Assembly (NCBI GenBank): GCA_018830005.1
Contig: JAHJTE010000002.1
Location: forward strand, 73,517 to 137,516
DNA length: 64,000 bases
Direction: 5' to 3'
Source: Candidatus Omnitrophota bacterium
GTDB taxonomy: Bacteria; Omnitrophota; Gorgyraeia; JAHJTE01
The position numbers and the translations under genes were made by a program. Positions 6,930-52,290 of the stretch are shown here, piece after piece. A model generated the notes under the pieces. That model saw only the letters and a list, made by a program, of their open reading frames with translations. It was not told the DNA's origin and ran no database searches. Position 1 is the first letter of the stretch, and the number at the start of each line of letters is the position of its first letter.

Positions 6930-6979
6930 TCATATCAAGGCGCTAAAATTTTTAGATTAGAAAATAGGTTGGACTTATA

Positions 6980-7969: not shown

Positions 7970-7971
7970 TG

Positions 7972-12872: not shown

Positions 12873-13526
12873 CTAGGATTTTTTCCTTTTTAAACCGAAT
12901 AAACCTAGAACACCCATTCCTAATAACGACATAGTTGCTGGTTCAGGAACTACTCCTACAGAAACGTCACTAAAAGTTCCCCAAGATGGAAGAGAACTAT
13001 CATAAGATGTTCTCAACACTATATTCAGATAATAATCTGATCCTGGAGTAACCATAACTGTAGACTGTTTCTTCCAACCACCACTTATACCCTCCAAGCC
13101 GTCTTCTGTGGCTCCACCCCAAGTAAGTCCTCCAATAATTGAAGCGCCATTCCAAAGATAATCTCCTTGAGTTATAACTGCATAGAACTCATCATAATAA
13201 GCAGAGTCATAACTGTTAAAGACCTTATCGAAATAGAGCTCGTAACCGTCAGGCGTTCCTAATGGAGCTAGAGATAGTCCTACGCCTTTCCAGCCTGCAG
13301 ATTGCGAATCACCTTCTTGTGGTAGAGTATCAAAATCTCCAATTGTAACAGATCCTGAAGTAGCAAGGATAACTGTTGTTAGTGAATCTCCGCTAATATT
13401 CGAATCTGGTGCGTAAACCACAGTAAAGATTGGATTGGAAATTTCAATATAGGCTGCTTCGGCATTTTGAAGCAATGCAAAACTTCCTAACGCCAAGATT
13501 GCCATACATAGCAAGATTTTCTTCAT
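12873..13526 (-). CDS. PEP-CTERM sorting-domain protein
   Basis: Signal peptide; C-terminus VVPEPATMSLLGMGVLGLFGLKRKKS. Confidence 0.8.
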   Translation of the reverse strand: MKKILLCMAILALGSFALLQNAEAAYIEISNPIFTVVYAPDSNISGDSLTTVILATSGSVTIGDFDTLPQEGDSQSAGWKGVGLSLAPLGTPDGYELYFDKVFNSYDSAYYDEFYAVITQGDYLWNGASIIGGLTWGGATEDGLEGISGGWKKQSTVMVTPGSDYYLNIVLRTSYDSSLPSWGTFSDVSVGVVPEPATMSLLGMGVLGLFGLKRKKS

Positions 13527-13657
13527 TCTATTTTCACCTCCTTTTTGTTAATTTTATCTATTAATCGCGTCCGTGGCTTTTAACGCGTTAATATTCTCCT
13601 CTTTATGAAATTAATAAACACAGAAACAACAATATATTTTTTAGTCTTCTCTTCATT

Positions 13658-14269
13658 TTATTTAAGCTTCTTTCTCTTTATACCAGCCAATCCTAACAAT
13701 CCTAATCCTAAAAGAGATAAGGTAGCAGGTTCTGGAATTGTAGACGTTTCAATAGTAAAATAAATACCGTCGTTATAATAATGACAATCCGGGTCAATAC
13801 CAAAACCAAAATTGCCATCACTAAGCCAAGCAAAATTGGCTGCAGGTATAGAGTAGGTTAAATTAACCTTATGGTTTGAATCTCCATAAGGGTCGTGCCA
13901 AACGCCTAACAAAAGTCCTTGAGTGGAAAAATTATCGCCGCCACCTTCATTATCCGTGCCTACAGTAACCGTACCAGTATATGTTCCGGCACCAGGCGCT
14001 ACATAAGCCGAGTCCAAAAGATGAGTGTAAAGACTATCATCCTCACCCCATAGGTGATCCCACATTTGTTGATAAGTCAAAGTTGCACTGGTTATGGTTT
14101 CTCCTGAAGGCACATACCAATCTATCCCCCAAGTATAGAATTCCTGATGAACTAAATCATAAAGGTCAGAGGGGCTCGGCGAAAAGGTGTAGGTATTGGC
14201 GAAAGCAAAATTCTGACAAAGCAGCATTATTGCTGCTGCTATTAGTAAAACTAAACATTTTCTTTTCAT
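13658..14269 (-). CDS. PEP-CTERM sorting-domain protein (start trimmed to internal Met MKRKCLVLL)
   Basis: Signal peptide after internal Met; C-terminus TIPEPATLSLLGLGLLGLAGIKRKKLK. Confidence 0.8.
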   Translation of the reverse strand: MKRKCLVLLIAAAIMLLCQNFAFANTYTFSPSPSDLYDLVHQEFYTWGIDWYVPSGETITSATLTYQQMWDHLWGEDDSLYTHLLDSAYVAPGAGTYTGTVTVGTDNEGGGDNFSTQGLLLGVWHDPYGDSNHKVNLTYSIPAANFAWLSDGNFGFGIDPDCHYYNDGIYFTIETSTIPEPATLSLLGLGLLGLAGIKRKKLK

Positions 14270-14271
14270 TT

Positions 14272-15156
14272 TTACCTCGCTCCCCTTCCGGTTAAAACTA
14301 TTACAACCGTATTGGCTAAAATTCTTAAATCTACTAATAAGCACATTTTTTTAATATATAAAATGTCGTATTTAATTTTCTTCTTTACGTCCTCAATTGT
14401 CTCATCATATTTATGCCAAACCTGCGCCAGTCCGGTTATCCCTGGCTTTACTACTAGACGTTGCTCATAATCACGAATTAATGTCCTTAAATCTCTAACT
14501 AGTTCCGGTCTCTCAGGCCTAGGTCCAACAATACTCATCTCACCCTTCAAAACATTAATTAACTGTGGAATCTCATCTATGTGGAGTTTTCTTAAGATTC
14601 TACCAACTGGAGTAATGCGTGGATCGTCTTTTCTGGCCCAAATTGCACCAGTAGCATTTTCTGCATCAAAGTACATAGTTCGCAATTTATAAATTTTAAA
14701 AAGTTCACCAAACCTTCCCATCCTATCCTGCTTATATACAATAGGACCTTTTGAGGTTAGCTTTATAATAGTGCCTGCAACTAAAAGAAATGGGAACGAT
14801 AGGACTAATCCAGTGCTAGCAAGCATAATGTCCATTATCCTCTTAAGTCTTTCAAAGCTTCTACGGACAAAACGAACTATAAGTCCGGTAACCCCGCTTA
14901 AAAGTAGAAACAAGGTGTTAAACTCAGGAGCGCGTGATTTCTCTGGAGTTTTAGCTGAAATGACAGGCTTACTATAATCAACAGTGCCTACTATATCCTG
15001 GGAGGAAATCTCTGAAGAGTCTAAATAAGTAACAGCAAAGGTCTGGCTTTCATCAAAACTTGATAAGAATAGAAAAAGACCAATTACGCAAATAAACGCA
15101 ACTAGTATCTTCTTAAAATTTGCTGTTGTCCTTAATTGTCCTGTATTTTGATTCAT
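14272..15156 (-). CDS. Polyprenyl-phosphate sugar phosphotransferase (bacterial sugar transferase, EpsB/WbaP-like priming enzyme)
   Basis: C-terminal Bac_transf signature DEIPQLINVLKGEMSIVGPRPERPE and KPGITGLAQV; N-terminal TM segments. Confidence 0.85.
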   Translation of the reverse strand: MNQNTGQLRTTANFKKILVAFICVIGLFLFLSSFDESQTFAVTYLDSSEISSQDIVGTVDYSKPVISAKTPEKSRAPEFNTLFLLLSGVTGLIVRFVRRSFERLKRIMDIMLASTGLVLSFPFLLVAGTIIKLTSKGPIVYKQDRMGRFGELFKIYKLRTMYFDAENATGAIWARKDDPRITPVGRILRKLHIDEIPQLINVLKGEMSIVGPRPERPELVRDLRTLIRDYEQRLVVKPGITGLAQVWHKYDETIEDVKKKIKYDILYIKKMCLLVDLRILANTVVIVLTGRGAR

Positions 15157-16122: not shown

Positions 16123-16935
16123 TTATTTTAAGGTATTTTCTACAATCAATAGTCCAATAAATGCAAACACAAATACAAATAAACCCATTGCCGTATGGAA
16201 CATACCTGTTGCCCATTTAGCACCGTATATCTCACTAACTAAAGACAAAGAAACTATACGTATTACATTTGTAGAAATAGCAATTGGGATTGAAGAAGCA
16301 AACAAAATCATCCTTTTGGAACGAGAAAGATTGCTCAAGTATCCCATAAGTGCACCTAGGGCAATTAAGGCGATTAAACTTCTTATTCCTGAACATGGAT
16401 CCTCAACAATAAGATAAGAATTTGCTGTCTTTATAATGCTGCCCTCCCTTATTGCTCTAATGCCTAGATTATTTATGATAAATGTTGAAATCTTTGCAGC
16501 AAAGATCTTCAGCTGAAAGCTCAAATTTGCAATTGCAACCAAAGGCAGTGGAATCATAAATATTAAAAATGATATAGGGAAAAATAACTTTTTTAGATAG
16601 TCTTTACCAAAAAATAATAAAGCTATTCCAATAATAGTTAGGATTAGAGAAAATCCCGACGAGAAATATACCCTCCAAACTGCACTTATGAGATGGATTA
16701 ATAACCCTGCACCAAGAAATAACCAGCCCATATTTGAAGGATTAATCTTTATACTTTTTAATTTATCCCTCATCTGCCAAATAAGAAAGATGCTTATAAA
16801 TGGCACTAGAAAACCATGGTTGTAATAGCTATCCTTAGCATTCCACCTATCATACATCCAAATAAAGGTTGGAATGTAGGCGATAATTATTAAAGCTGCT
16901 AAGGTAGCTAGCTTAATCAAATCCTGCTTCTTCAT
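16123..16935 (-). CDS. Exosortase (XrtA-like transpeptidase)
   Basis: 8-TM protein; YNHGFLVP near N-terminus; catalytic-Cys context EDPCSGIRSL; conserved NVIRI Arg region. Confidence 0.75.
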   Translation of the reverse strand: MKKQDLIKLATLAALIIIAYIPTFIWMYDRWNAKDSYYNHGFLVPFISIFLIWQMRDKLKSIKINPSNMGWLFLGAGLLIHLISAVWRVYFSSGFSLILTIIGIALLFFGKDYLKKLFFPISFLIFMIPLPLVAIANLSFQLKIFAAKISTFIINNLGIRAIREGSIIKTANSYLIVEDPCSGIRSLIALIALGALMGYLSNLSRSKRMILFASSIPIAISTNVIRIVSLSLVSEIYGAKWATGMFHTAMGLFVFVFAFIGLLIVENTLK

Positions 16936-19064: not shown

Positions 19065-21041
19065 TTATGTTCTTACTTTACAGTTGTATTCCAATGATTG
19101 ATAAAGGCACTCAGTACTTTTAACCATCCTATCAATGGAAAAATGCCGACGCACCCGTTTATGTCCGGTCTCTCCCATCTTTTTGGCCAAGACTGGATCT
19201 TTGATTAATTTTTCCATTGTATCGGCCAAAGCCGTCGCATTATCAGGCGGCACCAAATATCCTGTCTCACCATTTACGACTTGCTCTCCATTGCCACCCA
19301 CATCTGTTGCAATAACAGGAATCCTTTTCTCCATACATTCACAGATAGCAACAGAAAGCCCTTCGGTTATAGAAGAAAGAACCGATATATCCGCTACATC
19401 CAAAATTCTTGGCACATCTTTTCGCAAACCCGTAAATGTTAATTTATGTTTATCAATCAAATCCTGCCCTTGTCTTATAAGAGACTCTTTCAAGGGCCCC
19501 TCCCCGATGATAAAAGCATTAAAATCTATATCCTTAAGATCAAGCATTCTCAATGCCTCAATAAAAATATGATTGGCTTTTTGGGGAACTAACCGTCCAA
19601 TATTGACAATTACAGGATCGGCGTTGCGCATATTCAATTCGTCACGTATTGCTTGGATATGCGTTTTGTTTGTTATTTTTTCGCTTGGCGGAACACAGTT
19701 GTAAATCACTTCCATTTTTGAAATGGGAATCCCAACAATATTTGCGTAAAACTTTTTAACCTCCTTACTAACAACGATAACTTTATCGGTCACGCGCGAT
19801 AAAATCCTATCGAACATTTTTTGATACCATTTTTTCCAGAAATCTACATTTTGCTCTGTCGCAATAGTAACAGGGGTATTTGTCAATTTAGCGGCAATGC
19901 GGCCCCAGAAGTTTCCACCCCACATATGCGTATGAACAATATGAATATCGTTGCCTCTAATAATTTTCATAATTCTTCCAATGATCGAGAAATCTATACC
20001 TCTTTTTTTATTCAGTGCAAATATTTTGACGACTGAATCTCTTACCGAATCAGCAAATTCGCCTTCGTCATTCAGGCAACATAAGAATAATCTGTACTTA
20101 TCTTTATTCGTGCCGCGAATCAAATGGATAAGAGCTTGTTCCCCACCACCCAAGCCGAGACTCCAAATTACATGTAAAATATTAATTTTGGTATTCGCCT
20201 TATGCCTTTTATTATTCGTCTCGCGTTTTAATTCTTTTCGTTTCTGCACTTGCTTATGCATCCATTCAAAAGCTCCGGCTATTTTTTTCCTAAAATCAAA
20301 CAAATTGTCAAAACCGCTTATTTCTATCCGCTGCATTTCCAAAGCTGGAGTTTCTTCAGTATTTATGCCCGGTTTTATAGTAAAAGCGACACCGCACCCT
20401 ATTTCCTTTAAAATCTCTAATGTATCTTGATTGTAATCACCATAAGGATAACAGAATATCTTCTGGTCAATTTCAGAATTAAGATGCTGACGCAATATGG
20501 CAATGCCTTTAAGAATTTCTTCTTTTTGTTGGCTCTTGGTTAGCTGTGACAAATGAAGGTGTGTAGCTGTGTGATTGCCAAACGTAATTTCACCTTCAGC
20601 CATTTTTTTTACTTCTTGCCAATTTAACATATCAGGGTCTGGCATTTGAACAAAGCGCTGGGCTTTATAATTAGTCCCAATTCTATCCGTTGCTAAAAAG
20701 ATACAAGCTGATAAATTTAATTCCTTAAGAATAGGGTGAGCATTCAAATAATTATCACGATAGCCGTCGTCAAAAGTTATAACAACTACGGGTTTTTGCT
20801 GGTTATAAATTAGCTTTATTCTATTTTCCGGGTTAATCAGTTCTGTTACGCTGACAACCTTACAGTGTTTTTTTAAATACTTTGCCTGTGCATGAAAAAT
20901 AGCTACGGGCGTATTGAGCTCGCTGGGGGGTAAATCATCGTTAACCCGATGATATGTCAAGACAATAATACCTTCCCGCTTTTTAAAGAAACTCAATAGA
21001 TAAAAAAATGTGCTCAGTAGTGATCTGGCAATATATTTCAT
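19065..21041 (-). CDS. Fusion: NodB-type polysaccharide deacetylase (N-term) + GT4 glycosyltransferase (C-term)
   Basis: VVITFDDGYRDNY and FGNHTATH (NodB motifs); C-terminal GT4 EX7E (EGLSVAICE) and GETGYLV. Confidence 0.75.
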   Translation of the reverse strand: MKYIARSLLSTFFYLLSFFKKREGIIVLTYHRVNDDLPPSELNTPVAIFHAQAKYLKKHCKVVSVTELINPENRIKLIYNQQKPVVVITFDDGYRDNYLNAHPILKELNLSACIFLATDRIGTNYKAQRFVQMPDPDMLNWQEVKKMAEGEITFGNHTATHLHLSQLTKSQQKEEILKGIAILRQHLNSEIDQKIFCYPYGDYNQDTLEILKEIGCGVAFTIKPGINTEETPALEMQRIEISGFDNLFDFRKKIAGAFEWMHKQVQKRKELKRETNNKRHKANTKINILHVIWSLGLGGGEQALIHLIRGTNKDKYRLFLCCLNDEGEFADSVRDSVVKIFALNKKRGIDFSIIGRIMKIIRGNDIHIVHTHMWGGNFWGRIAAKLTNTPVTIATEQNVDFWKKWYQKMFDRILSRVTDKVIVVSKEVKKFYANIVGIPISKMEVIYNCVPPSEKITNKTHIQAIRDELNMRNADPVIVNIGRLVPQKANHIFIEALRMLDLKDIDFNAFIIGEGPLKESLIRQGQDLIDKHKLTFTGLRKDVPRILDVADISVLSSITEGLSVAICECMEKRIPVIATDVGGNGEQVVNGETGYLVPPDNATALADTMEKLIKDPVLAKKMGETGHKRVRRHFSIDRMVKSTECLYQSLEYNCKVRT

Positions 21042-23362
21042 AAACTACCCATAAACAAATTTCTTAACTGTGCCGCGTTATTTATTACATCGAATTTTTC
21101 TTTTACGATTCTCTGCGCTGAAACTAACAACTTTTCTCTGAGTTTATTGTCATGATATAACTTTTCGATGGCATCGGCAATCATTGCAGAATTCTTTTCA
21201 GGAATAATCAAGCCAGTTTCTCCGTCCTTAATTAATTCCGGAAGAGACGGTAACATCGTACAAATAACCGACGCACCGGCCGCAATGGCCTCCATAAGCA
21301 CATTAGGTATGCCCCAGTGAATTTCGGGAACCATAGACAGTACAAAAACATCAGCTTGTCGATAAATCGGTATAAGCCGTTCCTGAGTTACATAGCCCGT
21401 TATCTCAACATTATCTTTGAGGTTTAGTGAATCGACTTGAGCCTTTAGCTCTTCTTCTAACTTACCACCACCGGCAATCGTACATTTGAATGAGAAACCT
21501 CTCTCTTTTAATATCTTGCATGCGTCAATAAGATACTTAAATCCTTTACATTCAAGTAATGAGCCTACTGATAATATTCTAAAAATTCCGCCATCTTCTT
21601 TAATTTTTTTTCGGGGGACCAATCTACTAATATCAATACCATGATAATTAATGATGATTTTCTTAGGTTCAAAATGACGTTTATTTCGGTTTTGCACCAC
21701 ATCAAGTAGGCGCCTTTTATTATCAGCTGTACATGTTGTTATAAACCTGGCATAATGCATTTTTTCAGCCAGCATAGTTGTATCGAGATAGATATCATGG
21801 GCATGCCCTGTAAAACTAAATAGGATTCGATTTACCTTAGAGATAACAAAGGCAATTGTTGCCGGATATGTAGCCCATTGACCATGAACATGTGTAATTT
21901 TTTGCTTCTTAGTTAACCAAGCAAAACCAATTGTTTTAGGCCAAGCAATCATCGTCTTTAAGAAAAAGTTTGGGCTCGCAATATTGCCAAAGAAGACTAC
22001 TGTAAAAGCAGTAATATATCGAATCGGATAGCGAATGAAATAAAACAGGTTAATGGCGATTACCTTTAAGGATATAAAAGGAAGGTAATGCGTTATGTCT
22101 ATTAAACCTTTTGCTTCTTCATGAATGATTTCGTCTTTCGGCGTTTTGATTGAATAAATGATAAAATTCAATCCGCTTTTTTTTAATTGTGCGAGTTCAC
22201 GCAAAATAAATGTCTCGCTATACCGAGGGAATGAGGAAACGATAAACGCGACCTTGGGTTTTAACAACTGTTGATAAAGATCTTCTGTATTCTGTGCTAA
22301 TTTCTGGGAGCTAAAGTGTTTTCTAACGCGATTGTATCCTGCTTGCCCCATACGTGTTCTTAATTCTTTATTGTTCAATAATTGAATTAACTTTTCAGCC
22401 ATAAATTGAGGATTGGACTCTGGAACAAAAAAACCTGTTTTGTTATTGATAATCAATTCCTGACATCCGTCGACATTAGTAGCCACAACAGGCTTGGAGC
22501 AAGCCATATACTCTAAAATCACATTAGGGCAACCCTCATAATGCGTCGAAAGTACGCCAACGTCTATCATATTACTTAAATCAGGCATATCCTTGCGCAC
22601 ACCTGTGAAAATTATGTTAGGAATTCCTTGTTTCTTTACGTATTGTTCAAGCTCTGCCTTCTTTTTACCGTCTCCTATAGCGAGGAAATAAACATTCTTC
22701 ATGAGCCCAGATACTCCTACAGCCGCGGCAAAAAATGTTTCATAATCCTTTTGCAGACTAAAACGGGCTACCATGCCCACGATAAGCGCATCTTCAGGGA
22801 TACCCAAATCTTTGCGCAATTCCTGTGGATGACTCAAGTGTTCAAAACGCTTTGTATCCATTCCATTGTAGATTGTTACAATTTTTTTCGAATCGAGCTT
22901 TCTTTCACGTATCAAGAATGTTCTAAGCGATTCGGCATTTACCGTAATGACATCCGTAAACCACGATAAAATTCTATCCGCAAATATATGGTGAGGCTTC
23001 ATCCATAAATTCCGGTCCCGAATAGAACAAATAATATTTTTTATACCAGCAATCTTTGCGGCTAAACGACCATAACAATCCGCCGTAAATAAATATGTGT
23101 GGACAATTTGAGGTTTCTCCTTCTTAAACAGACGAATCATATCAATTAACGTCCGCGCATTAAAGAACCCCTTGTGTCGAAAACTGATAATCTCATAACC
23201 TAAATCACTAATTTTATGGCCTAATAAATTGTAAGTCTCGTCTAAATTGACAATTTTAATATCGTACACATTGCGATTAGCAAACTTGAGATACTCAAGA
23301 ATCTGTTGTTGTGCCCCTCCTATCCCCAGATGGTCAATAACGATGATAAGCTTAGTCTTCAC
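21038..23362 (-). CDS. Tandem double GT4 glycosyltransferase
   Basis: Two separate GT4 C-terminal signatures: EGCPNVILE...TGFFV and HWGIPNVLMEAIAAG...GETGLII. Confidence 0.7.
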   Translation of the reverse strand: MKTKLIIVIDHLGIGGAQQQILEYLKFANRNVYDIKIVNLDETYNLLGHKISDLGYEIISFRHKGFFNARTLIDMIRLFKKEKPQIVHTYLFTADCYGRLAAKIAGIKNIICSIRDRNLWMKPHHIFADRILSWFTDVITVNAESLRTFLIRERKLDSKKIVTIYNGMDTKRFEHLSHPQELRKDLGIPEDALIVGMVARFSLQKDYETFFAAAVGVSGLMKNVYFLAIGDGKKKAELEQYVKKQGIPNIIFTGVRKDMPDLSNMIDVGVLSTHYEGCPNVILEYMACSKPVVATNVDGCQELIINNKTGFFVPESNPQFMAEKLIQLLNNKELRTRMGQAGYNRVRKHFSSQKLAQNTEDLYQQLLKPKVAFIVSSFPRYSETFILRELAQLKKSGLNFIIYSIKTPKDEIIHEEAKGLIDITHYLPFISLKVIAINLFYFIRYPIRYITAFTVVFFGNIASPNFFLKTMIAWPKTIGFAWLTKKQKITHVHGQWATYPATIAFVISKVNRILFSFTGHAHDIYLDTTMLAEKMHYARFITTCTADNKRRLLDVVQNRNKRHFEPKKIIINYHGIDISRLVPRKKIKEDGGIFRILSVGSLLECKGFKYLIDACKILKERGFSFKCTIAGGGKLEEELKAQVDSLNLKDNVEITGYVTQERLIPIYRQADVFVLSMVPEIHWGIPNVLMEAIAAGASVICTMLPSLPELIKDGETGLIIPEKNSAMIADAIEKLYHDNKLREKLLVSAQRIVKEKFDVINNAAQLRNLFMGSL

Positions 23363-23415: not shown

Positions 23416-26400
23416 TCATTGATTTACCTTATCCTTCTTAATAAACTCAAAAGCCCCGATATCCGGGAATCCGTCACTCCGAAGATTATTATCATAATCA
23501 TTGGTGATGCTGTTAATAATAACACCGGCATCAATTGCCTTAGAATTCACTGTAAGCTTAAGACCACCGTCCGTAAAAGTATCATCGTTGGCAAATCCCG
23601 GCTCAGCAAACTTACTCCCCTTCTCTTGCTCTGGATAATCCACCTTTTTTAACCATGTTTTAAAATCAATATCATTCGCCCTAAACCATTTAGAGCCAAG
23701 ATGAAAGGGCTTTTTCTTACTGGAATGATACCAAAGGTTATGATCAAAAGACAAACCAAGAAAAGGCTCGCGTCTCCCTAATGGATCGGTCTTTATGTGT
23801 AGCAGATAAGTACTTGAATGCTTGGCAGAGACAATATTATTAAAAATGGAAACATTTTCATTGTTTCCACCATTATATGGAATCTTAATTCCTATAAAGT
23901 CTTCACCATTACCTTTTGCGTTCGGAAGGACAATGGTATTGTGGGCAATGAGAATATTTTTCATAGCGGAACCCCTAACGGCACCATAATGCGTTATTCC
24001 TCTGCGACAATTGACAATAATATTATTAGTAATCCTTATATTAGAGGTAACAGCTGGAGATTTTTCGTCGGCTGTCATGATACCCTCCGCTCTAAGACGC
24101 CGAAAACATTTTCCATCACGCGAGTTCTTGTCACCGTTGTTATATAAATCTCGCATATTAGGTTCATGACAGAAAATAAGATTCCCCTCGACAAGCACAT
24201 CTTTCCTCTTATTTATGTAGATATTGACGCTCCAATTATCAGAAACTATGTTATCTTTAATAATAGCGCCGTCCCCAGGCGCACCTATACCTTCACCGCC
24301 GTTTTGACTGATGATATTACCGATAATTTTTACATCTTTAGCATAAAAACCATCAATACCTTTACCCCAGCCACTGTCTTTCCATCTTCCTCTTGGCCAA
24401 TTACGCATGAAGTTATAATAAATGCGATTCTTAATAATTTCTGTGCCGTGGGAGACCTTTTTCCCATAATTAAACATGCTAATACCACTGTTACCGTTAA
24501 AGAGAATATTGCATCGTTCGATTCGGTTATGGTCGCCCAATATCTCAATGCCTTTGCCTCCGGCATACTTTATCGTTAAACCATAGAGCGTAACATACTG
24601 AGCCCCGCTTAAGAATATGGCATGCTGTTTTTTACTATCCTCAATAACCCCAACTTCAGAATCATTGGGGTTGGTTCCGTTTGGCGCGTAAACATAGAGA
24701 ACTTTTTCTTTCCAGCTGTAATACCATGTTTCTTCCTTTACATCCCTTAAGGAAAATTCTGGGAAAAGTGGCGTTTCATTAATAACAACAGCAACCGGTT
24801 TATCCAAACATTCGGTTTTATAGATATTTCGTTTATACGGTAACCATTTGCCGATATTCATCGATGCATCAATAACGACTTCCCCGTCTCCAAAAGGGCC
24901 AATCATTATTCGGTTCTCAGGGCTTCCCTTCTGGTAAATAGTAATTCGATTTATTTTATATCGACCGGATTTTATAAGAATTATGTCGCCCCCTTTTAAT
25001 TCTTTAAGGGCTCTCTCGATGGTTTTGAACGCATGATCTAGAGAATTACCGATGTTTCCATCATTTCCATTTTTCCCATCAACATAATAGTCTCTGCCGA
25101 TTGGAGTATGCGAAAAATCGTTATAAACACTAAGTGCTTTTGTGCCGCTGGAATTCCACCAACGACTATCGGTTTGCGCATATGCTGATGGAACAATAAA
25201 GAAAATAAATGCTATTACGCCGAGCAGGGCGACATTATGCCTTTTATTGTTTTTTCTATTCGACACTACCTGTTTCCCTTGGGCAACAAATCCTTTGCTA
25301 GCAGCTAATAACCCCAATATTATCCAAAAACTACCTACGACATTATCTCGGAAAAAATTAGAGTAAAATATGTTAACAACCATTAATGCCGTTAAACAGC
25401 CGATAAAACCTGCACCTAAATAATTAAATTCAGATTTTATTAGTGTTTTTGCTTCAAAGAATATGCACCATAACAACCACAAAAAGGCCAAAAGCCCCAA
25501 ACTGCCCATCTCCGCCATAATTTGAATAAAGCCATTGTGCGGATCAAAATTGCGCTCATAAGAAATCCGATAGTCCAACTGATTAAAGCCTATTCCCATT
25601 ATAGGATGTGCATAAAACAAATCCAATGCCACTTGCCATTTGAAAATGCGGCCTTGTGAACCTACATCAAGACTGGAAATATCAAGACTCTCTTCGGATT
25701 GCTGCTCATCGACCGTAACCGTGTCATCAATGCGATTAATGAGTGATTGAGGCATCCAATAGCGCCATTTTATTATTCCCAAGGAACCGACGATACACAG
25801 CATAACAATCAAAATTTTTGAGCGCTTCAAAAGAAATTTAAATGAAGAAAAAAACGTAATCGCGCTTCCGAGAATAATCGCGAGTAACGAACCTCTGGAA
25901 TAAGTAGACAACACGCCAGCAAAAATAGCAATAAATCCAATTCCACTAATCAACTTTAATATTTTCTGCTTAGCAAAAAGAAAATAAGAAAATAAAAAAG
26001 GGCCGAACATAGCTAAAAATGCTCCTGCGATATCCGAAGCCCTCCATGATTCACCGAAGGGACCAAATCCTCTTTTGTGGTCGGCAAAACTGGGCCCTTC
26101 CAATATTCCGGTGCGAAATGTATAAAAACCAATAATAGCAAGACTAATTAAAAAAACATTAAAAAGTAATCGCGATTCTTTTTTTGTCTTTACGCAGTAA
26201 GTAAAAACAAAATACCCGATTGGCAAAGTAATAAGCCTTTTAAAGTTCGTGGCTAGTACTATTACCGGCGTTCCCACGGATTGTATGGTTTGAAACACTG
26301 CATAAAAAAAAGACACTGTCCAAATAAACAAAAAAAAGAATAATGGAAGTTCAAATTTTGGACGTATCCTCAGGTGTTTTCTTCCGGAGATGAGCATTCC

Positions 26401-26508
26401 TAAAAAAATTACATTAAATATATCCACAATCGCTCCCACAGGAAGCTGCGGAATCTTAAGTCGAAACGGGAGATAAAACATATAAAGAATGAATATAAAA
26501 GTTTTCAT
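23416..26508 (-). CDS. Fusion: Wzy/O-antigen-ligase-like polytopic membrane domain + periplasmic right-handed parallel beta-helix domain
   Basis: N-terminal about 430 aa with more than 10 TM and Wzy_C signature HNGFIQIMAEMGSLGLL; C-terminal about 580 aa with YYVDGKNGNDGNIG...GDIILIKSGRY and repeated NxxxxN/G-rich beta-helix rungs. Confidence 0.65.
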   Translation of the reverse strand: MKTFIFILYMFYLPFRLKIPQLPVGAIVDIFNVIFLGMLISGRKHLRIRPKFELPLFFFLFIWTVSFFYAVFQTIQSVGTPVIVLATNFKRLITLPIGYFVFTYCVKTKKESRLLFNVFLISLAIIGFYTFRTGILEGPSFADHKRGFGPFGESWRASDIAGAFLAMFGPFLFSYFLFAKQKILKLISGIGFIAIFAGVLSTYSRGSLLAIILGSAITFFSSFKFLLKRSKILIVMLCIVGSLGIIKWRYWMPQSLINRIDDTVTVDEQQSEESLDISSLDVGSQGRIFKWQVALDLFYAHPIMGIGFNQLDYRISYERNFDPHNGFIQIMAEMGSLGLLAFLWLLWCIFFEAKTLIKSEFNYLGAGFIGCLTALMVVNIFYSNFFRDNVVGSFWIILGLLAASKGFVAQGKQVVSNRKNNKRHNVALLGVIAFIFFIVPSAYAQTDSRWWNSSGTKALSVYNDFSHTPIGRDYYVDGKNGNDGNIGNSLDHAFKTIERALKELKGGDIILIKSGRYKINRITIYQKGSPENRIMIGPFGDGEVVIDASMNIGKWLPYKRNIYKTECLDKPVAVVINETPLFPEFSLRDVKEETWYYSWKEKVLYVYAPNGTNPNDSEVGVIEDSKKQHAIFLSGAQYVTLYGLTIKYAGGKGIEILGDHNRIERCNILFNGNSGISMFNYGKKVSHGTEIIKNRIYYNFMRNWPRGRWKDSGWGKGIDGFYAKDVKIIGNIISQNGGEGIGAPGDGAIIKDNIVSDNWSVNIYINKRKDVLVEGNLIFCHEPNMRDLYNNGDKNSRDGKCFRRLRAEGIMTADEKSPAVTSNIRITNNIIVNCRRGITHYGAVRGSAMKNILIAHNTIVLPNAKGNGEDFIGIKIPYNGGNNENVSIFNNIVSAKHSSTYLLHIKTDPLGRREPFLGLSFDHNLWYHSSKKKPFHLGSKWFRANDIDFKTWLKKVDYPEQEKGSKFAEPGFANDDTFTDGGLKLTVNSKAIDAGVIINSITNDYDNNLRSDGFPDIGAFEFIKKDKVNQ

Positions 26509-28824: not shown

Positions 28825-30063
28825 TTAATTGATATTGAAATTTAACTTAACGCTGTGAGCAACTTTAAGAAAAAATGAATATAATTTAGCAAGTTTCCCA
28901 CCAAGACATTGCTCATCAAACCTACGTATATTCCCTTTAGCCCCGGCATCATCAAGAATAGCCCGGGCAAGATCGTAGCGTTTTTGCGCTTCAAGCAGGT
29001 CTACAAGCGCTAGGTAATTAATCTTAAAATCAATTTGATTTTGGTGCCTGAAAGCTCTTTTGAGTTCCTGAGGAGATAGATCATGAATAGGAAAAGCCTC
29101 TGCATATTTTAATTTGCCTATTGCTAACAGCATAGCCATTGTTTTAATACATTTAATACATCTACCGCAATTTAAGAATTTATCATGATTGATAGTGCAA
29201 ACTCTTAAATTCTGTAAAGCAATATCCCAATCAGCAATTATTTTAATCTTTTCAATCCTAGCAGATAATTTATCATGAATTATTTTTAAATCTAAGCTGC
29301 TATAATTGCGATCTAATGAAGGGTGGGATCCCCATGGTTGCAAATTTCTCGGAGAATCTGTAGAAGCAATATACATCATACTTATTCTTGAAGTAAAACA
29401 ATGTGCAACTGAGGAAAGAGCGGCGCCATGAAACCATTTAATCCAAAAGTCGACATCACTATACAAATGTCTAACATTAGTAAAAACTGGTATCAGATTA
29501 ACCTGCGCTTCTTTAGCAACTTCTGCGGCGCTCTTCATTGCTCTATCAAAGATGTCAAACTTTTTTTCTGAATTCTCATCATGGTAGATATCGAACCCAT
29601 GAACGAGAAAGCAATCTTTAATAGAAGAGGGGTGATTTAGGGGGTAAGTAAGGCGGTTATTGCGTAAAGAAAAAATTGAATCCACTCCTCCTGAAAAAAA
29701 TAGTCCAGCCCGATTTCTCCGATTCGTAGACGTTGAACTTGCCTTTATATTTGCATCAATTTGAATGGGCCTATATTGAGAACCATACCATTTTCTGAAG
29801 GTCTGTATATTGGTCACTATGCCCTTATGCAGAATCGAACAAACTTCTCCCTCTATTTTTATCCTTTTTTCTCCCAAATACATAGCTGGTAAACAACAAC
29901 CAACCAAAAAAGCATTGGGGTTGACTACCAAATCATCTCTAAATTCATCACTTGTTTCAAAATAAATATCAAGGCTTGCCTTGTCTACATCTTCCCAGAC
30001 AACGGTGGCAACTGCTCGACTTAAACCATCTCTTGTTTCTTCTCTTATATTTTTGATTTCCAC
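28825..30063 (-). CDS. PP-loop ATP pyrophosphatase (WbuX / QueC-like N-acetyl-sugar amidotransferase candidate)
   Basis: SGGVDS PP-loop; C-terminal Cys cluster C-x8-CGRCxKC resembling QueC/WbuX zinc site. Confidence 0.5.
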   Translation of the reverse strand: MEIKNIREETRDGLSRAVATVVWEDVDKASLDIYFETSDEFRDDLVVNPNAFLVGCCLPAMYLGEKRIKIEGEVCSILHKGIVTNIQTFRKWYGSQYRPIQIDANIKASSTSTNRRNRAGLFFSGGVDSIFSLRNNRLTYPLNHPSSIKDCFLVHGFDIYHDENSEKKFDIFDRAMKSAAEVAKEAQVNLIPVFTNVRHLYSDVDFWIKWFHGAALSSVAHCFTSRISMMYIASTDSPRNLQPWGSHPSLDRNYSSLDLKIIHDKLSARIEKIKIIADWDIALQNLRVCTINHDKFLNCGRCIKCIKTMAMLLAIGKLKYAEAFPIHDLSPQELKRAFRHQNQIDFKINYLALVDLLEAQKRYDLARAILDDAGAKGNIRRFDEQCLGGKLAKLYSFFLKVAHSVKLNFNIN

Positions 30064-32876: not shown

Positions 32877-34322
32877 TTACTGGGACAATACTAGCTTCTT
32901 CATTTCTATAATAAAGTTTCTTTCGATTCTGTGTAGCGAGTAAACATATACTGCTATAGCAAAAGAGAATAAGATTAAAAATCTTAATGAAATAAGCAAA
33001 TTATATGGCATAATAAAATTCTTAATCAAAATTAAACTTAATGCCATAATTAAAGATGAAATCAAGGCTGGTTTGAGGTTTAGGTAAACTTGTTTTAAAC
33101 CAAAATTCAATATTTTCATTTGAAAGCTTAAGCTAACAATAAAAGCAATAAAACTTGATGCTCCTACAACTATTCCTACTCCATTTATTCCAAATAATTT
33201 TGCCATAGGCACAATGAATATGAGAAAAATGGTTACCTGCATTGCAGTTATCCAAAAGACAATTTTTGGCTTACCACAAGCCAAAAAAACACCACCCAAA
33301 CCGGAAGATAGACTATTAAAAACACCTGCGACTGCTAAAATTTTTAAAACGCTTATTGCGCCTATCCACTTCTGTCCATAAACAAAGCTTAATAATTCTT
33401 CTGCCAAAAAAATTAGCCCTACTCCAAAAGGAAGGGCAATTAAACTAACATGCTTAAAAACTTTAAAGGATGCCCTTTTTAAATCATCTAAATTTCCTTG
33501 AAGTTTGGAATAAGCTGGAAAAATAACGCGCTGGACCTTCCCTCCAAAATAATCTCTAGCAAAATTAGCCAAATTAAAAGCGATTGCATATAGTCCTAAG
33601 GCAGCGACCCCCAAAAGCTTTCCCACTAAAAGATTATCTAAATTCATTTTTAAAAACCAAACTACTCCACCCAGAAAAAGGAACTTGCCGAAATGAAACA
33701 TTTCAAAGGCGATTTTCCTGTCAAATTCAAGTCTTGGATGCCATTTGCTAAAAACCCAAAACATTATATTTTGACAGAAAGTCTTTAATACATAAGCAAA
33801 CACTAAACTCCATATTCCTACCCCAGATATCGCCAAAATAATAGCAGTTATAGAATAAATAATTCCTGTGCTAATCTCAATCTTTGATATGTTTTTAAAC
33901 TGCATACTCTTCTCTAGCAGGGCTCTGGGAACATTTCCAAAACAACTGATAATAAAGATTACGCCTAAGGCTCTTACAACCCCCACTACTTCCTGATTAT
34001 TTAGGAATTTACCAATCACCGGTGCTGAAATTGCTAAAATCAGATATATGCTCACGCCCAACACGGGAATAATAAAAAAGGCAGTGTTTGCTGCCTTTTC
34101 TACATCGTCTTTTCTACGTATTAGTGCTGAATCAAAGCCCATGCTCTTAAATAGACCTAAGGTATCAATAGCTATAAAGGCAAGGGAAAATAAACCAAAA
34201 GTAGCTGGATTTAAAATTCGCGCTAAAACAATCGTTGTACCAAGAGAAATAATCCTACTAATAAAACTCAAACCCACAAGCCACTTTATTCCATTAACCG
34301 TTTGTTTCTTTAGGGAAGTCAT
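32877..34322 (-). CDS. Polysaccharide biosynthesis flippase (Wzx/MOP superfamily)
   Basis: About 12-14 TM; N-terminal KxxxxNxxW-type start typical of Polysacc_synt. Confidence 0.8.
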   Translation of the reverse strand: MTSLKKQTVNGIKWLVGLSFISRIISLGTTIVLARILNPATFGLFSLAFIAIDTLGLFKSMGFDSALIRRKDDVEKAANTAFFIIPVLGVSIYLILAISAPVIGKFLNNQEVVGVVRALGVIFIISCFGNVPRALLEKSMQFKNISKIEISTGIIYSITAIILAISGVGIWSLVFAYVLKTFCQNIMFWVFSKWHPRLEFDRKIAFEMFHFGKFLFLGGVVWFLKMNLDNLLVGKLLGVAALGLYAIAFNLANFARDYFGGKVQRVIFPAYSKLQGNLDDLKRASFKVFKHVSLIALPFGVGLIFLAEELLSFVYGQKWIGAISVLKILAVAGVFNSLSSGLGGVFLACGKPKIVFWITAMQVTIFLIFIVPMAKLFGINGVGIVVGASSFIAFIVSLSFQMKILNFGLKQVYLNLKPALISSLIMALSLILIKNFIMPYNLLISLRFLILFSFAIAVYVYSLHRIERNFIIEMKKLVLSQ

Positions 34323-38477: not shown

Positions 38478-39794
38478 CTAGCTTCTAAAGAAAGCCATAA
38501 ACATTGAAATGATAATAAGCAATGCGCTGACTACTAAACCAATAATAATTATCATCTTTTTCTTTCTTTTTTCCTTATCAATCTCTTCCTGGGTAGTAAG
38601 CCGGGAAATCGCTCCTAATATAGGGAGCTCTAAATTACTTTTTGCATCTTCTATATCCAGGAAAGACTTATCCATAAATTCCCTGCCTAAGACCAGACCA
38701 GTACCAGCCATACCTCCAAAGAAAAGACCTAAGAATATAACTAGTATTTTCTTAGGCTTAGAAGGCTGTAAGGGTAATCTGGGAGGGTCTAAAATAGTAT
38801 AACGAGTCCCTTCTTTTGATACTTCCAGGCGCTGGGTAATCTTTGCAGTTTCAAGCTTTTGTAAGAGCATATTGTAAATATTCTCATTTACTCTTATATC
38901 CCGGGCTAAGACAGAGTCAATCTTATCCATTAACAGCAATTTATAAATAGAGTCTCTTGCGCTTTCGCCCTCATTAGCAGCATCATTGGAAGCATAAGCT
39001 GTTGCGCCAATTGAAGACAAGCTATCTCCTGTAACCTTGTCTATCTCTTCTTTTAAAGCCTCATATACTGGATTTGTTACTGGCTTCTCAATATCTCCTA
39101 CCTCGTATCCTCCAGAATTAAGCTCCTGATTTAGGGCCTGTATTTTCTGCCTTAAGTCCTTAACCATGGGGTGCTGTTCAGTAGAATCACCGAGAAGCTT
39201 CTTAAGCTGATCTTCTAATGATGCAATCTCTGTTTCCTTTATCTTTCTCTTATAGATCCTTAGCTGGTCTTTAATAAATTCTATGGCTACATCTGTTTCT
39301 TTACTCTGGGACTGAACGTTCTTTTCAATAAATACATCAGTTATAGTCTTTGCAATAAGCTGGGTCTCTTCAGGTTCTTTGCCAAAATAAGCTAATCTTA
39401 TAATATTAGGTCCACGCATCTGAACTAGGATATTATTTCTTAAGCTTTTTATAAGATTTTCATATTCTAACTGGTTTTTTACATTCTTTGCTAAATCCAG
39501 CTTTTTAGCTAACTCTACCAGACTGCTCCAGCTTAATATCTGCTCCCGTAGGGTGCGCATCCTCTGTGCAACTGAAGTAGATACAGCCAGGCCTTGAATT
39601 AAAGGATTAATAATCTTCTCTTCCTCAACCAAAATCACAGTTGAAGATTCATATGTTGGCGGTAAAGTAAAGGCAAGAGTAATGCTTATCACCAACCCCG
39701 CAAATATCGGAGTTATAAACAGCCATTTTCTTCTAAAGAGTATCTTTAGATAATCTGCCGGGTTTCTTTGTTTAGCGTTTTCATAATTTTCCAT
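38478..39794 (-). CDS. Polysaccharide chain-length determinant (Wzz-like)
   Basis: N- and C-terminal TM helices flanking coiled-coil periplasmic region. Confidence 0.7.
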   Translation of the reverse strand: MENYENAKQRNPADYLKILFRRKWLFITPIFAGLVISITLAFTLPPTYESSTVILVEEEKIINPLIQGLAVSTSVAQRMRTLREQILSWSSLVELAKKLDLAKNVKNQLEYENLIKSLRNNILVQMRGPNIIRLAYFGKEPEETQLIAKTITDVFIEKNVQSQSKETDVAIEFIKDQLRIYKRKIKETEIASLEDQLKKLLGDSTEQHPMVKDLRQKIQALNQELNSGGYEVGDIEKPVTNPVYEALKEEIDKVTGDSLSSIGATAYASNDAANEGESARDSIYKLLLMDKIDSVLARDIRVNENIYNMLLQKLETAKITQRLEVSKEGTRYTILDPPRLPLQPSKPKKILVIFLGLFFGGMAGTGLVLGREFMDKSFLDIEDAKSNLELPILGAISRLTTQEEIDKEKRKKKMIIIIGLVVSALLIIISMFMAFFRS

Positions 39795-39808
39795 TTTTTC
39801 CTCTTTTT

Positions 39809-40633
39809 TTATGGGGTCATGGTTGTTGCTGAACGAACACCAGAAGCAGCTGTTCCAACTGGTGCAACAACCGGATTAATTACTCTCATAATCTTTGCCA
39901 TTACCGTAGCCGGAACGTAAAATACATCACCCGGTTTCATCTCTATATTCTTTTTTAGTTCTCCACCGTAAAGGATCGAATACAAATCAACCTTCTTTTT
40001 CTTTCCCTTGCCGTTTTCAGAAGGGGTTATCAACTCGCATTTACGCATAGCAGCAGCTAAGGTAGGCAGACCTGCCTGAACTACAGCCTCTCTTACGGGT
40101 ATATTCTCTGAGCGCATATAATATTTCCCAGGTCTTGCTACCTCTCCAAGTACATAGATAACCTTGCTTTTATAATCTAAAATGGTTATGTTTATTTCAG
40201 GGCTTATGATGAAATTAGCAACAAGCTCCTTAATTTTTTCTTCCAGCTCCTTTTTGGTAAGACCTGTAACCTCTATATCTCCTACAAATTTATACTGTAT
40301 CTTTCCTTCTAGATTTATAGGATAAACTCCGCTAAACTCGGGGTGGCGCATTACAGTTATCTCTACCACATCCTCAGGTCCTAATGTGTATTTTAATGGA
40401 TCAAAGTAGTTGGCATTAGCAGGAATTGAACTAGCAAAATCTAAGGCTGGAACACTGGCTGCTTGACTGTCCTTAGGTATCACCTCAACAGCTCGCATGG
40501 TCCTGCCATCCTTGGAGATGATCTCTGTTGCCCTTATGGTCTTGTCCTGGGCAAATGCCGGAACTAAAAACAGACCAATTACTAAAACAATAGTAAAAAT
40601 CTTAATTATCTTATTCATCGCCATCCTCCCCAA
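39809..40633 (-). CDS. Polysaccharide export protein (Wza-like, Poly_export + SLBB)
   Basis: Signal peptide; ...KFVGDIEVTGLTKKELEEKIK... and YVLGEVARPGKY; probable start at internal Met around 40618. Confidence 0.8.
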   Translation of the reverse strand: MGRMAMNKIIKIFTIVLVIGLFLVPAFAQDKTIRATEIISKDGRTMRAVEVIPKDSQAASVPALDFASSIPANANYFDPLKYTLGPEDVVEITVMRHPEFSGVYPINLEGKIQYKFVGDIEVTGLTKKELEEKIKELVANFIISPEINITILDYKSKVIYVLGEVARPGKYYMRSENIPVREAVVQAGLPTLAAAMRKCELITPSENGKGKKKKVDLYSILYGGELKKNIEMKPGDVFYVPATVMAKIMRVINPVVAPVGTAASGVRSATTMTP

Positions 40634-52160: not shown

Positions 52161-52253
52161 AAGTTAAAGCTATATTCTAAAACCTTCCAGGCCTATATAC
52201 TCATTTATTATATAACAAAATTTTACTAAAATAAATATTTTATGCAAAAAAAA

Positions 52254-52290
52254 TCCCCGGTTCAATTAAGAACCGGGGATTCAAAGCTAC
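52254..52290 (-). terminator. Rho-independent terminator after porin gene
   Basis: Minus strand AUCCCCGGUUC-UUAAUU-GAACCGGGGAU followed by UUUUUUUU. Confidence 0.65.

What the first reader, a model, noticed from the sequence alone, without database searches (positions are those of the whole stretch)
23416..26508. 1030-aa fusion of Wzy/O-antigen-ligase-like membrane domain with a periplasmic parallel beta-helix domain
Seen: the N-terminal about 430 aa has more than 10 TM helices and the Wzy_C signature HNGFIQIMAEMGSLGLL. A further TM helix follows, then about 580 aa with a pectate-lyase-fold start (YYVDGKNGNDGNIG...GDIILIKSGRYKI) and many Asn/Gly-rich rung repeats (NIISQNGGEGIG, IIKDNIVSDN...).

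Inference: a polymerase or ligase physically coupled to a polysaccharide-modifying beta-helix module (lyase, hydrolase, or AlgG-like epimerase/chain-trimming). This could couple polymerisation with processing, or attach glycan to PEP-CTERM proteins. The canonical PEP-CTERM-locus O-antigen-ligase-like protein is not normally fused to such a domain.
Basis: partly seen in the sequence, partly recalled or inferred. Interest (0 to 1): 0.5.

Follow-up and report, generated by a model that had tools for sequence, protein, structure and literature searches.

The report
Wzy-like polymerase fused to periplasmic beta-helix enzyme
A real but rare single gene in an uncultured Omnitrophota bacterium joins the membrane enzyme that builds a slime polysaccharide to a secreted sugar-cutting-type beta-helix protein; in most relatives these are two neighbouring genes, which points to the two working together.

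Summary

It is not an assembly artefact. Five other fused orthologues (40-49% identity, independent samples) exist, all in exosortase-type or closely similar EPS loci of Candidatus Omnitrophota.

The fusion is rare: 3 of 201 strong cluster representatives among 1.84 billion. In most relatives the two halves are separate genes, adjacent (13-21 bp apart) or one to three genes apart. TM13 is the former signal peptide of the beta-helix protein, and it keeps a signal-peptidase -3/-1 motif at a conserved position before an 'RWW' motif.

Best reading: the locus's only candidate repeat-unit polymerase is fused to a periplasmic glycanase-like enzyme that trims or releases nascent EPS. The closest analogues are WceF and RbmB. 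An AlgG-type epimerase is disfavoured because the family has no conserved His. Hydrolase versus lyase, polymerase versus ligase, and whether the protein is cleaved all remain open.

It is a new variant of known kinds, of moderate interest.

The parts
23416..26508 (-). Whole fused gene, 1030 aa including the stop codon (NCBI MBU2541260.1, Candidatus Omnitrophota MAG)
   Evidence: ORF list; exact-sequence look-up
25273..26508 (-). Residues 1-412: 12-TM Wzy_C / GT-C(B)-type Und-PP-glycan transferase domain, the candidate repeat-unit polymerase
   Evidence: Pfam Wzy_C 67.1 bits. Hydropathy. Profile hit to the WaaL-type protein 7tpg, E 1e-15. It is the only polytopic candidate polymerase in the locus.
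25528..25764 (-). Residues 249-327: large acidic periplasmic loop with family-invariant R259, R287, D322 and H324. Invariant R205 lies just upstream, at the TM7/8 turn.
   Evidence: Alignment A3 invariants. R205, R287 and H324 align with Arg, Arg and His of the 7tpg WaaL-type protein. The role of such Arg/His residues is described in PMC12800693.
25234..25284 (-). Residues 409-425: basic cytoplasmic linker (5 K/R). It corresponds to the former stop codon, intergenic spacer and signal-peptide n-region.
   Evidence: Hydropathy and charge; junction comparison with the unfused gene pairs in L006, L007 and L003
25177..25233 (-). Residues 426-444: TM13, the former signal peptide h- and c-region. It ends in A-Y-A before Q445, which fits the signal peptidase I -3/-1 rule.
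   Evidence: The motif sits 5 residues before the conserved RWW in most fused proteins (7 in L002) and in the close stand-alone proteins P0003, P0011 and P0005 (3 in P0081).
23419..25176 (-). Residues 445-1030: periplasmic right-handed parallel beta-helix domain. It has an N-terminal cap (YYVDGKNG), about 10 rungs with an Asn ladder, and a C-terminal 'choice-of-anchor Q'-like end.
24064..24414 (-). Residues 699-815: family-invariant polar cluster (N703-W-P-R706, W714, N736-G-G-E739-G, D757-N-W-S760, Y764, D814-E815). It lies on or next to PB1 strands of three consecutive rungs and is the putative substrate groove or active site.
   Evidence: 49-sequence alignment A2, mapped on the DSSP of the model
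16123..16935 (-). Context: XrtA-like exosortase (EpsH); EpsI follows at 15481-16101
   Evidence: Pfam; NCBIfam XrtA 195.9 bits against a cut-off of 208
32877..34322 (-). Context: Wzx-type flippase (Polysacc_synt_3)
38478..40633 (-). Context: XrtA-system chain-length determinant (Wzz/GNVR) and OPX export protein
12873..15156 (-). Context: two PEP-CTERM proteins and the initiating sugar transferase (Bac_transf)

Best explanation
This is a genuine gene of a Candidatus Omnitrophota bacterium, inside an XrtA-type exosortase/PEP-CTERM exopolysaccharide locus. It arose by fusing two genes that are separate neighbours in most relatives.

Part 1 (residues 1-412) is a 12-TM Wzy_C-superfamily enzyme. It has the Arg/Arg/His constellation that handles undecaprenyl-pyrophosphate-linked glycans on the periplasmic face. 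The locus has Wzx, a chain-length determinant plus kinase, an OPX exporter and an initiating transferase, but no other candidate polymerase. This domain is therefore most likely the repeat-unit polymerase (inferred).

Part 2 (residues 445-1030) is a secreted right-handed beta-helix of the polysaccharide hydrolase/lyase type. It has an invariant acidic/aromatic groove (R706, E739, D757, Y764, D814, E815). Its former signal peptide now acts as TM13, which places the beta-helix in the periplasm on the same side as the Wzy catalytic loop. The topology is shown by hydropathy, charge and homology.

The beta-helix most likely binds and cleaves the nascent EPS chain, for chain-length trimming, release or quality control. 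EPS-locus glycanases in other systems do this (inferred). The fusion guarantees 1:1 co-synthesis and co-localisation. The conserved -3/-1 motif suggests the beta-helix may then be released by signal peptidase I (inferred, about even odds).
For: - Intact ORF, with both domains above Pfam cut-offs.
- Five further fused orthologues at 40-49% identity: P0002/L001, L002, P0009, P0016/L010 and P0070/L011. They come from independent samples and are conserved through the junction.
- Unfused arrangements: Wzy_C and beta-helix genes lie 21 bp apart (L006) and 13 bp apart (L007). One gene separates them in L003 and L004, two in L008 and three in L009.
- In 11 of the 13 contexts examined the two are fused or lie in the same EPS locus. 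The two exceptions are L005 and P0048.
- TM13 aligns with the signal peptide of stand-alone members, and the -3/-1 small residues keep a fixed distance from RWW.
- Topology: an alternating positive-inside pattern, with 5 K/R in loop 409-425.
- Other members of the beta-helix family carry CBM_4_9, fn3, PKD, Calx-beta and PG-binding add-ons, which are typical of secreted glycan-active enzymes.
- The conserved polar residues line up on PB1 of three consecutive rungs.
- The protein is the only polytopic candidate polymerase in the locus.
- Precedents: WceF, a beta-helix glycosidase encoded in a Wzy-dependent cluster, whose knock-out lengthens chains (PMC7949094); and RbmB (PMC12993940).
Against:
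- Sequence similarity to GH136, GH120 and PL9 is confined to the N-terminal cap and the C-terminal end.
- The best NCBIfam match of the membrane domain is a family named 'putative O-glycosylation ligase' (TIGR03097), though far below its cut-off. A ligase role is therefore not excluded.
- Two more distant family members lie outside EPS loci.
- Signal-peptidase cleavage of an internal TM in a polytopic protein is unusual and is untested here.
Confidence: 0.55

Rival explanations
1. The membrane domain is not a polymerase but a WaaL/PglL-type ligase. It would transfer the finished glycan from Und-PP onto an acceptor such as PEP-CTERM proteins or a lipid anchor. The beta-helix would hold or process the glycan or the acceptor.
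For: - The best NCBIfam match is TIGR03097, 'putative O-glycosylation ligase, exosortase A system-associated', for 15 of 16 family members.
- The closest solved structures are a WaaL-type ligase (7tpg, E 1e-15) and an O-oligosaccharyltransferase (9rmk).
- TfpM O-OTase gives weak hits.
- PEP-CTERM proteins are encoded in the locus.
- O-OTases such as PglS also carry a C-terminal periplasmic domain (PMC12800693).
Against: - TIGR03097 scores 65-68 bits against a cut-off of 188.
- The Wzx/PCP/OPX locus would then lack any polymerase.
- Wzy, WaaL and O-OTases share Wzy_C and the same Arg/His motif, so the hits do not discriminate between them.
- The ligase name of TIGR03097 is itself a hypothesis.
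Confidence: 0.2
2. The beta-helix is a non-catalytic glycan-binding module. It would act as a guide, chaperone or processivity clamp that receives the growing chain from Wzy and hands it to the PCP/OPX export machinery.
For: - WceF shows lectin-like aggregation with its EPS (PMC7949094).
- No catalytic residue could be assigned by homology.
Against: - Invariant carboxylates, Arg and Tyr are concentrated on PB1 of three consecutive rungs, the canonical active-site face.
- The family also occurs with CBM or fn3 modules and outside EPS loci, like free secreted enzymes.
Confidence: 0.15
3. The beta-helix is an AlgG/AlgE-like C5-epimerase that modifies sugars of the polymer after polymerisation.
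Against: - The 49-sequence family alignment has no invariant or near-invariant His or Lys, so the DPH(D/E)-type catalytic motif is absent.
- No uronic-acid synthesis gene was seen among the annotated genes of the window.
Confidence: 0.05
4. Artefact: two separate genes were joined by a sequencing frameshift or an assembly chimera.
For: The source is a metagenome-assembled sequence, and the unfused arrangement with a gap of only 13-21 bp is common in relatives.
Against: - Six fused sequences from independent samples and assemblers (JGI, NCBI, ENA, Logan) fall in two tree clades.
- Their linkers differ in length but all stay in frame and all keep the TM.
Confidence: 0.02

Closest known systems
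WceF (Pantoea stewartii) and its AmsF-type homologues: beta-helix glycosidase encoded inside a Wzy-dependent EPS cluster
   Same: It is a right-handed beta-helix exported across the inner membrane. It is encoded among Wzx/Wzy/Wzc-type EPS genes and cleaves its own EPS. Its loss lengthens chains (PMC7949094). This is the functional model proposed here.
RbmB (Vibrio cholerae VPS lyase, PDB 9ozd) and PL9 Pel9A (1ru4)
   Different: RbmB and PL9 use a catalytic Lys base (K227 in RbmB). The present family has no conserved Lys. They are stand-alone secreted proteins. The present domain is about 200 aa longer.
GH136 lacto-N-biosidases (7v6i, 7v6m, 5gqc), GH120 XylC (3vst) and GH141 BT_1002 (5mqp)
   Same: They give the best Foldseek hits (E 1e-15 to 1e-11) and the best PDB profile hits (E about 1e-14). 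They share the N-terminal cap 'YYV..G.D.N.G' and the C-terminal 'PDIGA.E' end.
   Different: Identity is 10-24%, and sequence matches are confined to the two ends. The catalytic rungs do not align (domain scores about 0 bits). These are catabolic enzymes of gut bacteria, not biosynthetic-locus proteins.
TIGR03097 PEP_O_lig_1 (XrtA-system putative O-glycosylation ligase) and WaaL (7tpg)
   Same: Both have a Wzy_C polytopic domain. The XrtA-type locus context is shared, and R205, R287 and H324 align with the Arg/Arg/His of the WaaL-type structure.
   Different: The score is 65-68 bits against a 188-bit cut-off, so this is not a curated member. Canonical members end after TM12 with no TM13 or beta-helix.
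AlgG (periplasmic alginate C5-epimerase)
   Different: The conserved His-containing catalytic motif is absent. Alginate is made by a synthase-dependent pathway, not a Wzy-dependent one.

Membership tests
Pfam Wzy_C (PF04932) superfamily (Wzy / WaaL / O-OTase) | Profile match above the gathering score | tested here: met
   67.1 bits against 31.7, residues 191-343
Pfam Wzy_C (PF04932) superfamily (Wzy / WaaL / O-OTase) | Polytopic topology with a large periplasmic loop that carries conserved Arg and His | tested here: met
   12 spans with a 79-aa acidic loop at 249-327. R205, R259, R287, D322 and H324 are invariant in 16 relatives and align to 7tpg.
TIGR03097 PEP_O_lig_1 (XrtA-associated putative O-glycosylation ligase) | Score at or above the curated cut-off (188.1 bits) | tested here: not met
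   64.6 bits for the full protein and 67.9 bits for the N-terminal domain
TIGR03097 PEP_O_lig_1 (XrtA-associated putative O-glycosylation ligase) | Encoded in an exosortase A/PEP-CTERM EPS locus | tested here: met
   Exosortase (XrtA model 195.9 bits against 208), EpsI, PEP-CTERM proteins, pepcterm_ChnLen and pepcterm_export are present
Wzy repeat-unit polymerase (functional class) | Polymerises Und-PP-linked repeat units; partners are Wzx, PCP and OPX | not testable with these tools
   The partners are present and no other candidate polymerase is in the locus. The activity itself needs genetics or biochemistry.
Right-handed parallel beta-helix (Pfam Beta_helix PF13229, pectin-lyase-like fold) | Profile match above the cut-off, plus a beta-helix fold in the structure prediction | tested here: met
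AlgG/AlgE mannuronan C5-epimerases | Conserved catalytic His (DPHD / YG(F/I)DPH(D/E) motif, named from established knowledge) | tested here: not met
   No His is conserved at 90% or more in the 49-sequence alignment
PL9 / RbmB-type lyases | Catalytic Lys as the Bronsted base (K227 in RbmB, PMC12993940) | tested here: not met
   No conserved Lys in the family. A structure-based superposition was not possible, so an Arg-base lyase mechanism (R706) is not excluded.
GH136 / GH120 / GH141 beta-helix glycoside hydrolases | Catalytic carboxylate pair at equivalent rungs | tested here: inconclusive
   The fold and the cap/end motifs match. The family has invariant E739 and E815 and near-invariant D757 and D814. 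The central rungs do not align at sequence level.
Sec signal peptide / signal peptidase I substrate (applied to TM13) | n-region with K/R, a hydrophobic h-region, and small residues at -3 and -1 | tested here: met
   Residues NRKNNKRHN / VALLGVIAFIFFIVPS / AYA|Q. The same pattern, at a fixed distance from RWW, occurs in most fused proteins and in the close stand-alone relatives. Actual cleavage is not testable here.

The most novel reading that the evidence does not exclude
The Wzy-like polymerase and the beta-helix glycanase form an obligatory polymerase-depolymerase pair that sets EPS chain length or releases the chain in exosortase-type systems of Omnitrophota. In the fused genes they would be made as a bacterial membrane 'polyprotein' that signal peptidase I cuts at an internal signal peptide (A444|Q445). 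This would give strictly 1:1 Wzy and periplasmic enzyme. The beta-helix family itself would be a new CAZy family, because no catalytic motif is shared with GH120, GH136, GH141 or PL9.
Probability: 0.25. Interest if true: 0.65.

Novelty: new variant of a known kind. Interest (0 to 1): 0.42.

Why it matters
How Wzy polymerases are controlled, and how chains are terminated or released, is still poorly understood. Glycanases encoded in Wzy-dependent clusters, such as WceF, have unclear roles.

A recurrent Wzy/beta-helix gene pair has fused in at least two places in a rough tree. This is 'Rosetta-stone' evidence that the two proteins act together at the periplasmic face of the membrane. It also gives a concrete, testable pair for biochemistry.

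The finding defines an uncharacterised family of about 130 or more clusters of beta-helix proteins, with a distinct conserved groove, as a regular component of Omnitrophota exosortase/PEP-CTERM EPS loci. In GenBank these proteins are annotated only as 'right-handed parallel beta-helix repeat-containing protein' or 'O-antigen ligase family protein'.

Tried and rejected
- A full-length AlphaFold run with a 2-sequence alignment gave an unusable model (pLDDT 31).
- The word-index homologue search with the full-length protein found only 2 proteins. Searching with the C-terminal domain alone was needed.
- The afdb50 fold library was unavailable, so I could not look for the fusion among UniProt models.
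- Literature searches for exosortase plus O-antigen ligase plus beta-helix, for Wzy_C plus Beta_helix, for Omnitrophota plus PEP-CTERM, and for a Wzy fusion found nothing relevant. A search for '7V6M' hit an unrelated paper.
- I checked whether long beta-helix homologues (900-1400 aa) hide divergent Wzy domains. They do not: they carry fn3, FG-GAP, InlB-B, CBM_4_9 or PG-binding modules.
- I looked for a second polymerase candidate and for uronic-acid synthesis genes in the window. None was found.
- The AlgG-like epimerase and Lys-base lyase readings were rejected on missing conserved His and Lys.
- The frameshift or assembly-join reading was rejected.
Full report
**1. Observation**

Window 23416-26508 holds one uninterrupted 1030-aa ORF on the minus strand, starting with ATG.

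- Pfam gives Wzy_C at residues 191-343 (67.1 bits, cut-off 31.7) and Beta_helix at 630-777 (63.1 bits, cut-off 25.9). There are weaker NosD and DUF1565 matches.
- NCBIfam gives TIGR03097, 'putative O-glycosylation ligase, exosortase A system-associated'. The score is only 64.6 bits against a cut-off of 188. A sub-threshold 'choice-of-anchor Q' match lies at the C-terminal end.
- Hydropathy shows 12 spans in residues 1-412, a 79-aa acidic loop (249-327), a basic loop (409-425, 5 K/R) and a 13th span (426-444) ending in A-Y-A|Q.
- The positive-inside pattern alternates consistently. It puts the 249-327 loop and everything after TM13 outside the cytoplasm.

**2. Context**

All neighbours are on the same strand and form a textbook exosortase/PEP-CTERM EPS locus:

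- two PEP-CTERM proteins, Bac_transf, EpsI and an XrtA-like exosortase;
- several GT2 and GT4 genes, a pyruvyl transferase, a GNAT and an AsnB-like protein;
- a Wzx flippase, methyltransferases, a DUF3473 deacetylase and a BY-kinase-like ATPase;
- the XrtA-system ATPase, a chain-length determinant and an OPX exporter.

PrsK/PrsR/PrsT-like regulators and RpoN lie next to it. Apart from Wzx, the exosortase and a TM-anchored GT2, the target is the only polytopic protein in the locus. It is the only Wzy_C protein in the locus.

The exact protein is in GenBank as MBU2541260.1, 'right-handed parallel beta-helix repeat-containing protein [Candidatus Omnitrophota bacterium]'.

**3. The fusion is real and rare, and it joins two habitual neighbours**

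Fused orthologues:

- A word-index search found one fused relative, P0002 (1037 aa, 45-47% identity). It is conserved across the junction and lies in another exosortase locus.
- A genome scan found a fused copy in an Omnitrophota MAG (L002, 1044 aa). Its locus has an exosortase 49% identical to the window's.
- Further fused proteins are P0009 (1018 aa), P0016/P0197 (985/992 aa; L010, followed by deacetylase, GT2, exosortase and EpsI) and P0070 (1056 aa; L011).

An exhaustive HMMER search of 1.84 billion cluster representatives gave 201 hits below 1e-30. Only three of them align over the full length. Other long hits carry fn3, FG-GAP, InlB-B, CBM_4_9 or PG-binding modules, not Wzy.

The C-terminal domain alone retrieves about 65 proteins. 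Most are stand-alone proteins of 600-630 aa with an N-terminal signal or anchor. Those that carry a source name are mainly from Omnitrophota MAGs.

In the unfused relatives the Wzy_C gene and the beta-helix gene are arranged as follows:

| Locus | Arrangement |
|---|---|
| L006 | adjacent, 21 bp apart |
| L007 | adjacent, 13 bp apart, with the same downstream gene order as the window |
| L003 | one GT4 gene between them |
| L004 | one GT4 gene between them |
| L008 | two genes between them |
| L009 | three genes between them |

Two more distant members (L005 and P0048) lie outside EPS loci.

A rough NJ tree without bootstrap puts the fused proteins in two separate clades among stand-alone ones. 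That suggests at least two fusion events, or fissions.

**4. The junction**

Stand-alone Wzy proteins end a few residues after TM12, for example '...LGLLAAGRDLLYGKEKK*' in L006.

Stand-alone beta-helix proteins begin with a classical signal peptide followed by a conserved 'xxxxRWW(N/D/S)' motif. In L006 this reads MSMTKKILLFSLFIGVLSAKQLFA|DDGSQWWN.

In the window the same elements are in frame: NRKNNKRHN-VALLGVIAFIFFIVPSAYA|QTDSRWWN.

Most fused proteins keep small residues at -3/-1 exactly five residues before RWW (seven in L002). So do the stand-alone proteins P0003, P0011 and P0005 (three in P0081).

TM13 is therefore the former signal peptide. Whether it is still cleaved cannot be decided here. 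I put the odds at about even.

**5. The beta-helix**

With a 49-sequence alignment (A2) AlphaFold gives pLDDT 92.7 and pTM 0.93, with about ten three-strand rungs.

- Foldseek against the PDB ranks GH120 XylC, GH136 lacto-N-biosidases, GH141 BT_1002, PL9 Pel9A, GH110 and PL6 enzymes first.
- The fold is thus confirmed, but on its own it does not fix the chemistry.
- Profile hits to PDB sequences are confined to the N-terminal cap and the C-terminal end.

Family-invariant polar residues cluster on or beside PB1 strands of three consecutive rungs: N703-W-P-R706, W714, N736-G-G-E739-G, D757-N-W-S760, Y764 and D814-E815. That is the canonical groove of beta-helix enzymes. The other invariant Asn residues form an Asn ladder.

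No His or Lys is conserved. This argues against AlgG/AlgE-type epimerases and against Lys-base lyases such as RbmB, which uses K227 (PMC12993940). Carboxylate-based hydrolysis, or a Ca/Arg-type lyase mechanism, remains possible.

No uronic-acid synthesis gene was seen in the window. A pyruvyl transferase is present. This mildly favours hydrolysis.

**6. The membrane domain**

In 16 fused and stand-alone relatives, K145-R146, D159, Y203-R205-G206, R259, R287, D322 and H324 are invariant, and N325 is nearly so.

The profile hits the Cupriavidus WaaL-type structure 7tpg (E 1e-15). R205, R287 and H324 align with its Arg, Arg and His. It also hits an O-oligosaccharyltransferase weakly.

In this superfamily such Arg residues are proposed to bind the Und-PP pyrophosphate, and the His is the proposed catalytic base (PMC12800693). 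These features do not separate Wzy from WaaL or O-OTases.

Pathway logic favours a polymerase: Wzx, PCP plus kinase, OPX and an initiating transferase are present, and no other candidate exists. The TIGR03097 'ligase' label is a sub-threshold match to a hypothetical name.

**7. Mechanism proposed**

Shown:

- one gene, two domains;
- the beta-helix lies on the periplasmic side, together with the Wzy catalytic loop;
- a conserved gene partnership.

Inferred:

- the Wzy domain polymerises flipped repeat units;
- the beta-helix binds the emerging chain in its PB1 groove and cleaves it, for chain-length trimming, release or removal of mis-made polymer.

WceF does this in the Wzy-dependent stewartan system, where its knock-out lengthens chains (PMC7949094).

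The fusion enforces stoichiometry and proximity. The retained signal-peptidase motif suggests possible maturation into two polypeptides.

The rivals are a ligase role, a non-catalytic guide, an epimerase and an artefact. They are scored in the structured fields.

**8. Novelty and verdict**

Both domains, and the idea of an EPS-locus glycanase, are known. The covalent Wzy/beta-helix fusion, the conserved Wzy/beta-helix neighbourhood in Omnitrophota exosortase loci, and the family-specific groove are not described in the literature I could search. The proteins carry only generic automatic names.

I rate it a new variant of known kinds, of moderate interest (0.42). Its main value is Rosetta-stone evidence for a polymerase-glycanase partnership, plus a possible internally processed precursor.

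Noticed in passing
window 19065-23362 (-): Two other multi-domain fusions sit directly downstream of the target. One is a 774-aa double GT4. The other is a 658-aa polysaccharide deacetylase plus GT4. The double GT4 recurs in related loci (L006, L007, L008, L010), whereas the deacetylase is a separate gene there. This locus seems prone to gene fusion.
   Followed up: partly
window 28825-30063 (-): A 412-aa soluble protein in the middle of the EPS locus has no Pfam or NCBIfam match at all. A 397-aa gene without hits sits at a comparable place in L010, between the flippase and the pyruvyl transferase.
   Followed up: no
window 30852-32696 (-): A 614-aa AsnB-like protein has only faint matches: GATase_7 at 23 bits and the XrtA-system amidotransferase TIGR03108 at 42 bits against a cut-off of 817. 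It may be a very divergent version of the usual exosortase-locus amidotransferase.
   Followed up: no
window 5544-11450: A regulatory block lies beside the EPS locus. It holds RpoN (sigma-54), a PocR+GAF sensor, a sigma-54-dependent response regulator, a GAF histidine kinase and a TPR lipoprotein. This looks like the PrsK/PrsR/PrsT set of PEP-CTERM systems.
   Followed up: partly
window 4145-5026 (-): A free-standing LAGLIDADG-type homing-endonuclease-like ORF (293 aa) lies between a radical-SAM gene and rpoN.
   Followed up: no
window 42260-43701 (-): An AbiEi-like antitoxin (212 aa) is followed by a 268-aa partner with no NCBIfam hit. This is probably an AbiE-type toxin-antitoxin pair just upstream of the EPS locus.
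   Followed up: no
window 41212-41568 (-): A 118-aa ORF has an 'SGPGGQ' motif and a basic tail. It resembles an ArfB / peptidyl-tRNA hydrolase-type release-factor domain. This was judged from the sequence only.
   Followed up: no
window 50500-53696 (-): An Alginate_exp (AlgE-like) outer-membrane porin (463 aa) lies near a ParA/BcsQ-like ATPase fused to a CBM48 glycogen-binding module. This may be a second polysaccharide-related module about 26 kb from the target.
   Followed up: no
window 16983-18134 (-); also L001, L004, L006, L007, L008, L010: A GT2 of about 370-385 aa with N- and C-terminal TM helices (Glyco_transf_21 / Glyco_tranf_2_3) sits immediately upstream of the exosortase in the window, L001, L004, L007 and L010. 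In L008 one gene separates them, and L006 has the GT2 but no exosortase in the stretch seen. It is a conserved but uncharacterised partner of these exosortases.
   Followed up: no
P0015, P0017, P0018, P0021 (about 820-830 aa); P0027, P0028 (about 750 aa): Some stand-alone members of the beta-helix family carry an extra domain of about 230 aa with no annotation. Others carry a long Ser/Thr/Ala-rich linker between the signal anchor and the beta-helix. These are alternative ways of spacing the enzyme from the membrane.
   Followed up: partly
window 26482-26508: The JGI gene call for the same protein (P0001, 1021 aa) starts 9 codons downstream of the ATG used here and by NCBI (1030 aa). Orthologues align from residue 1, which favours the longer form.
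   Followed up: partly
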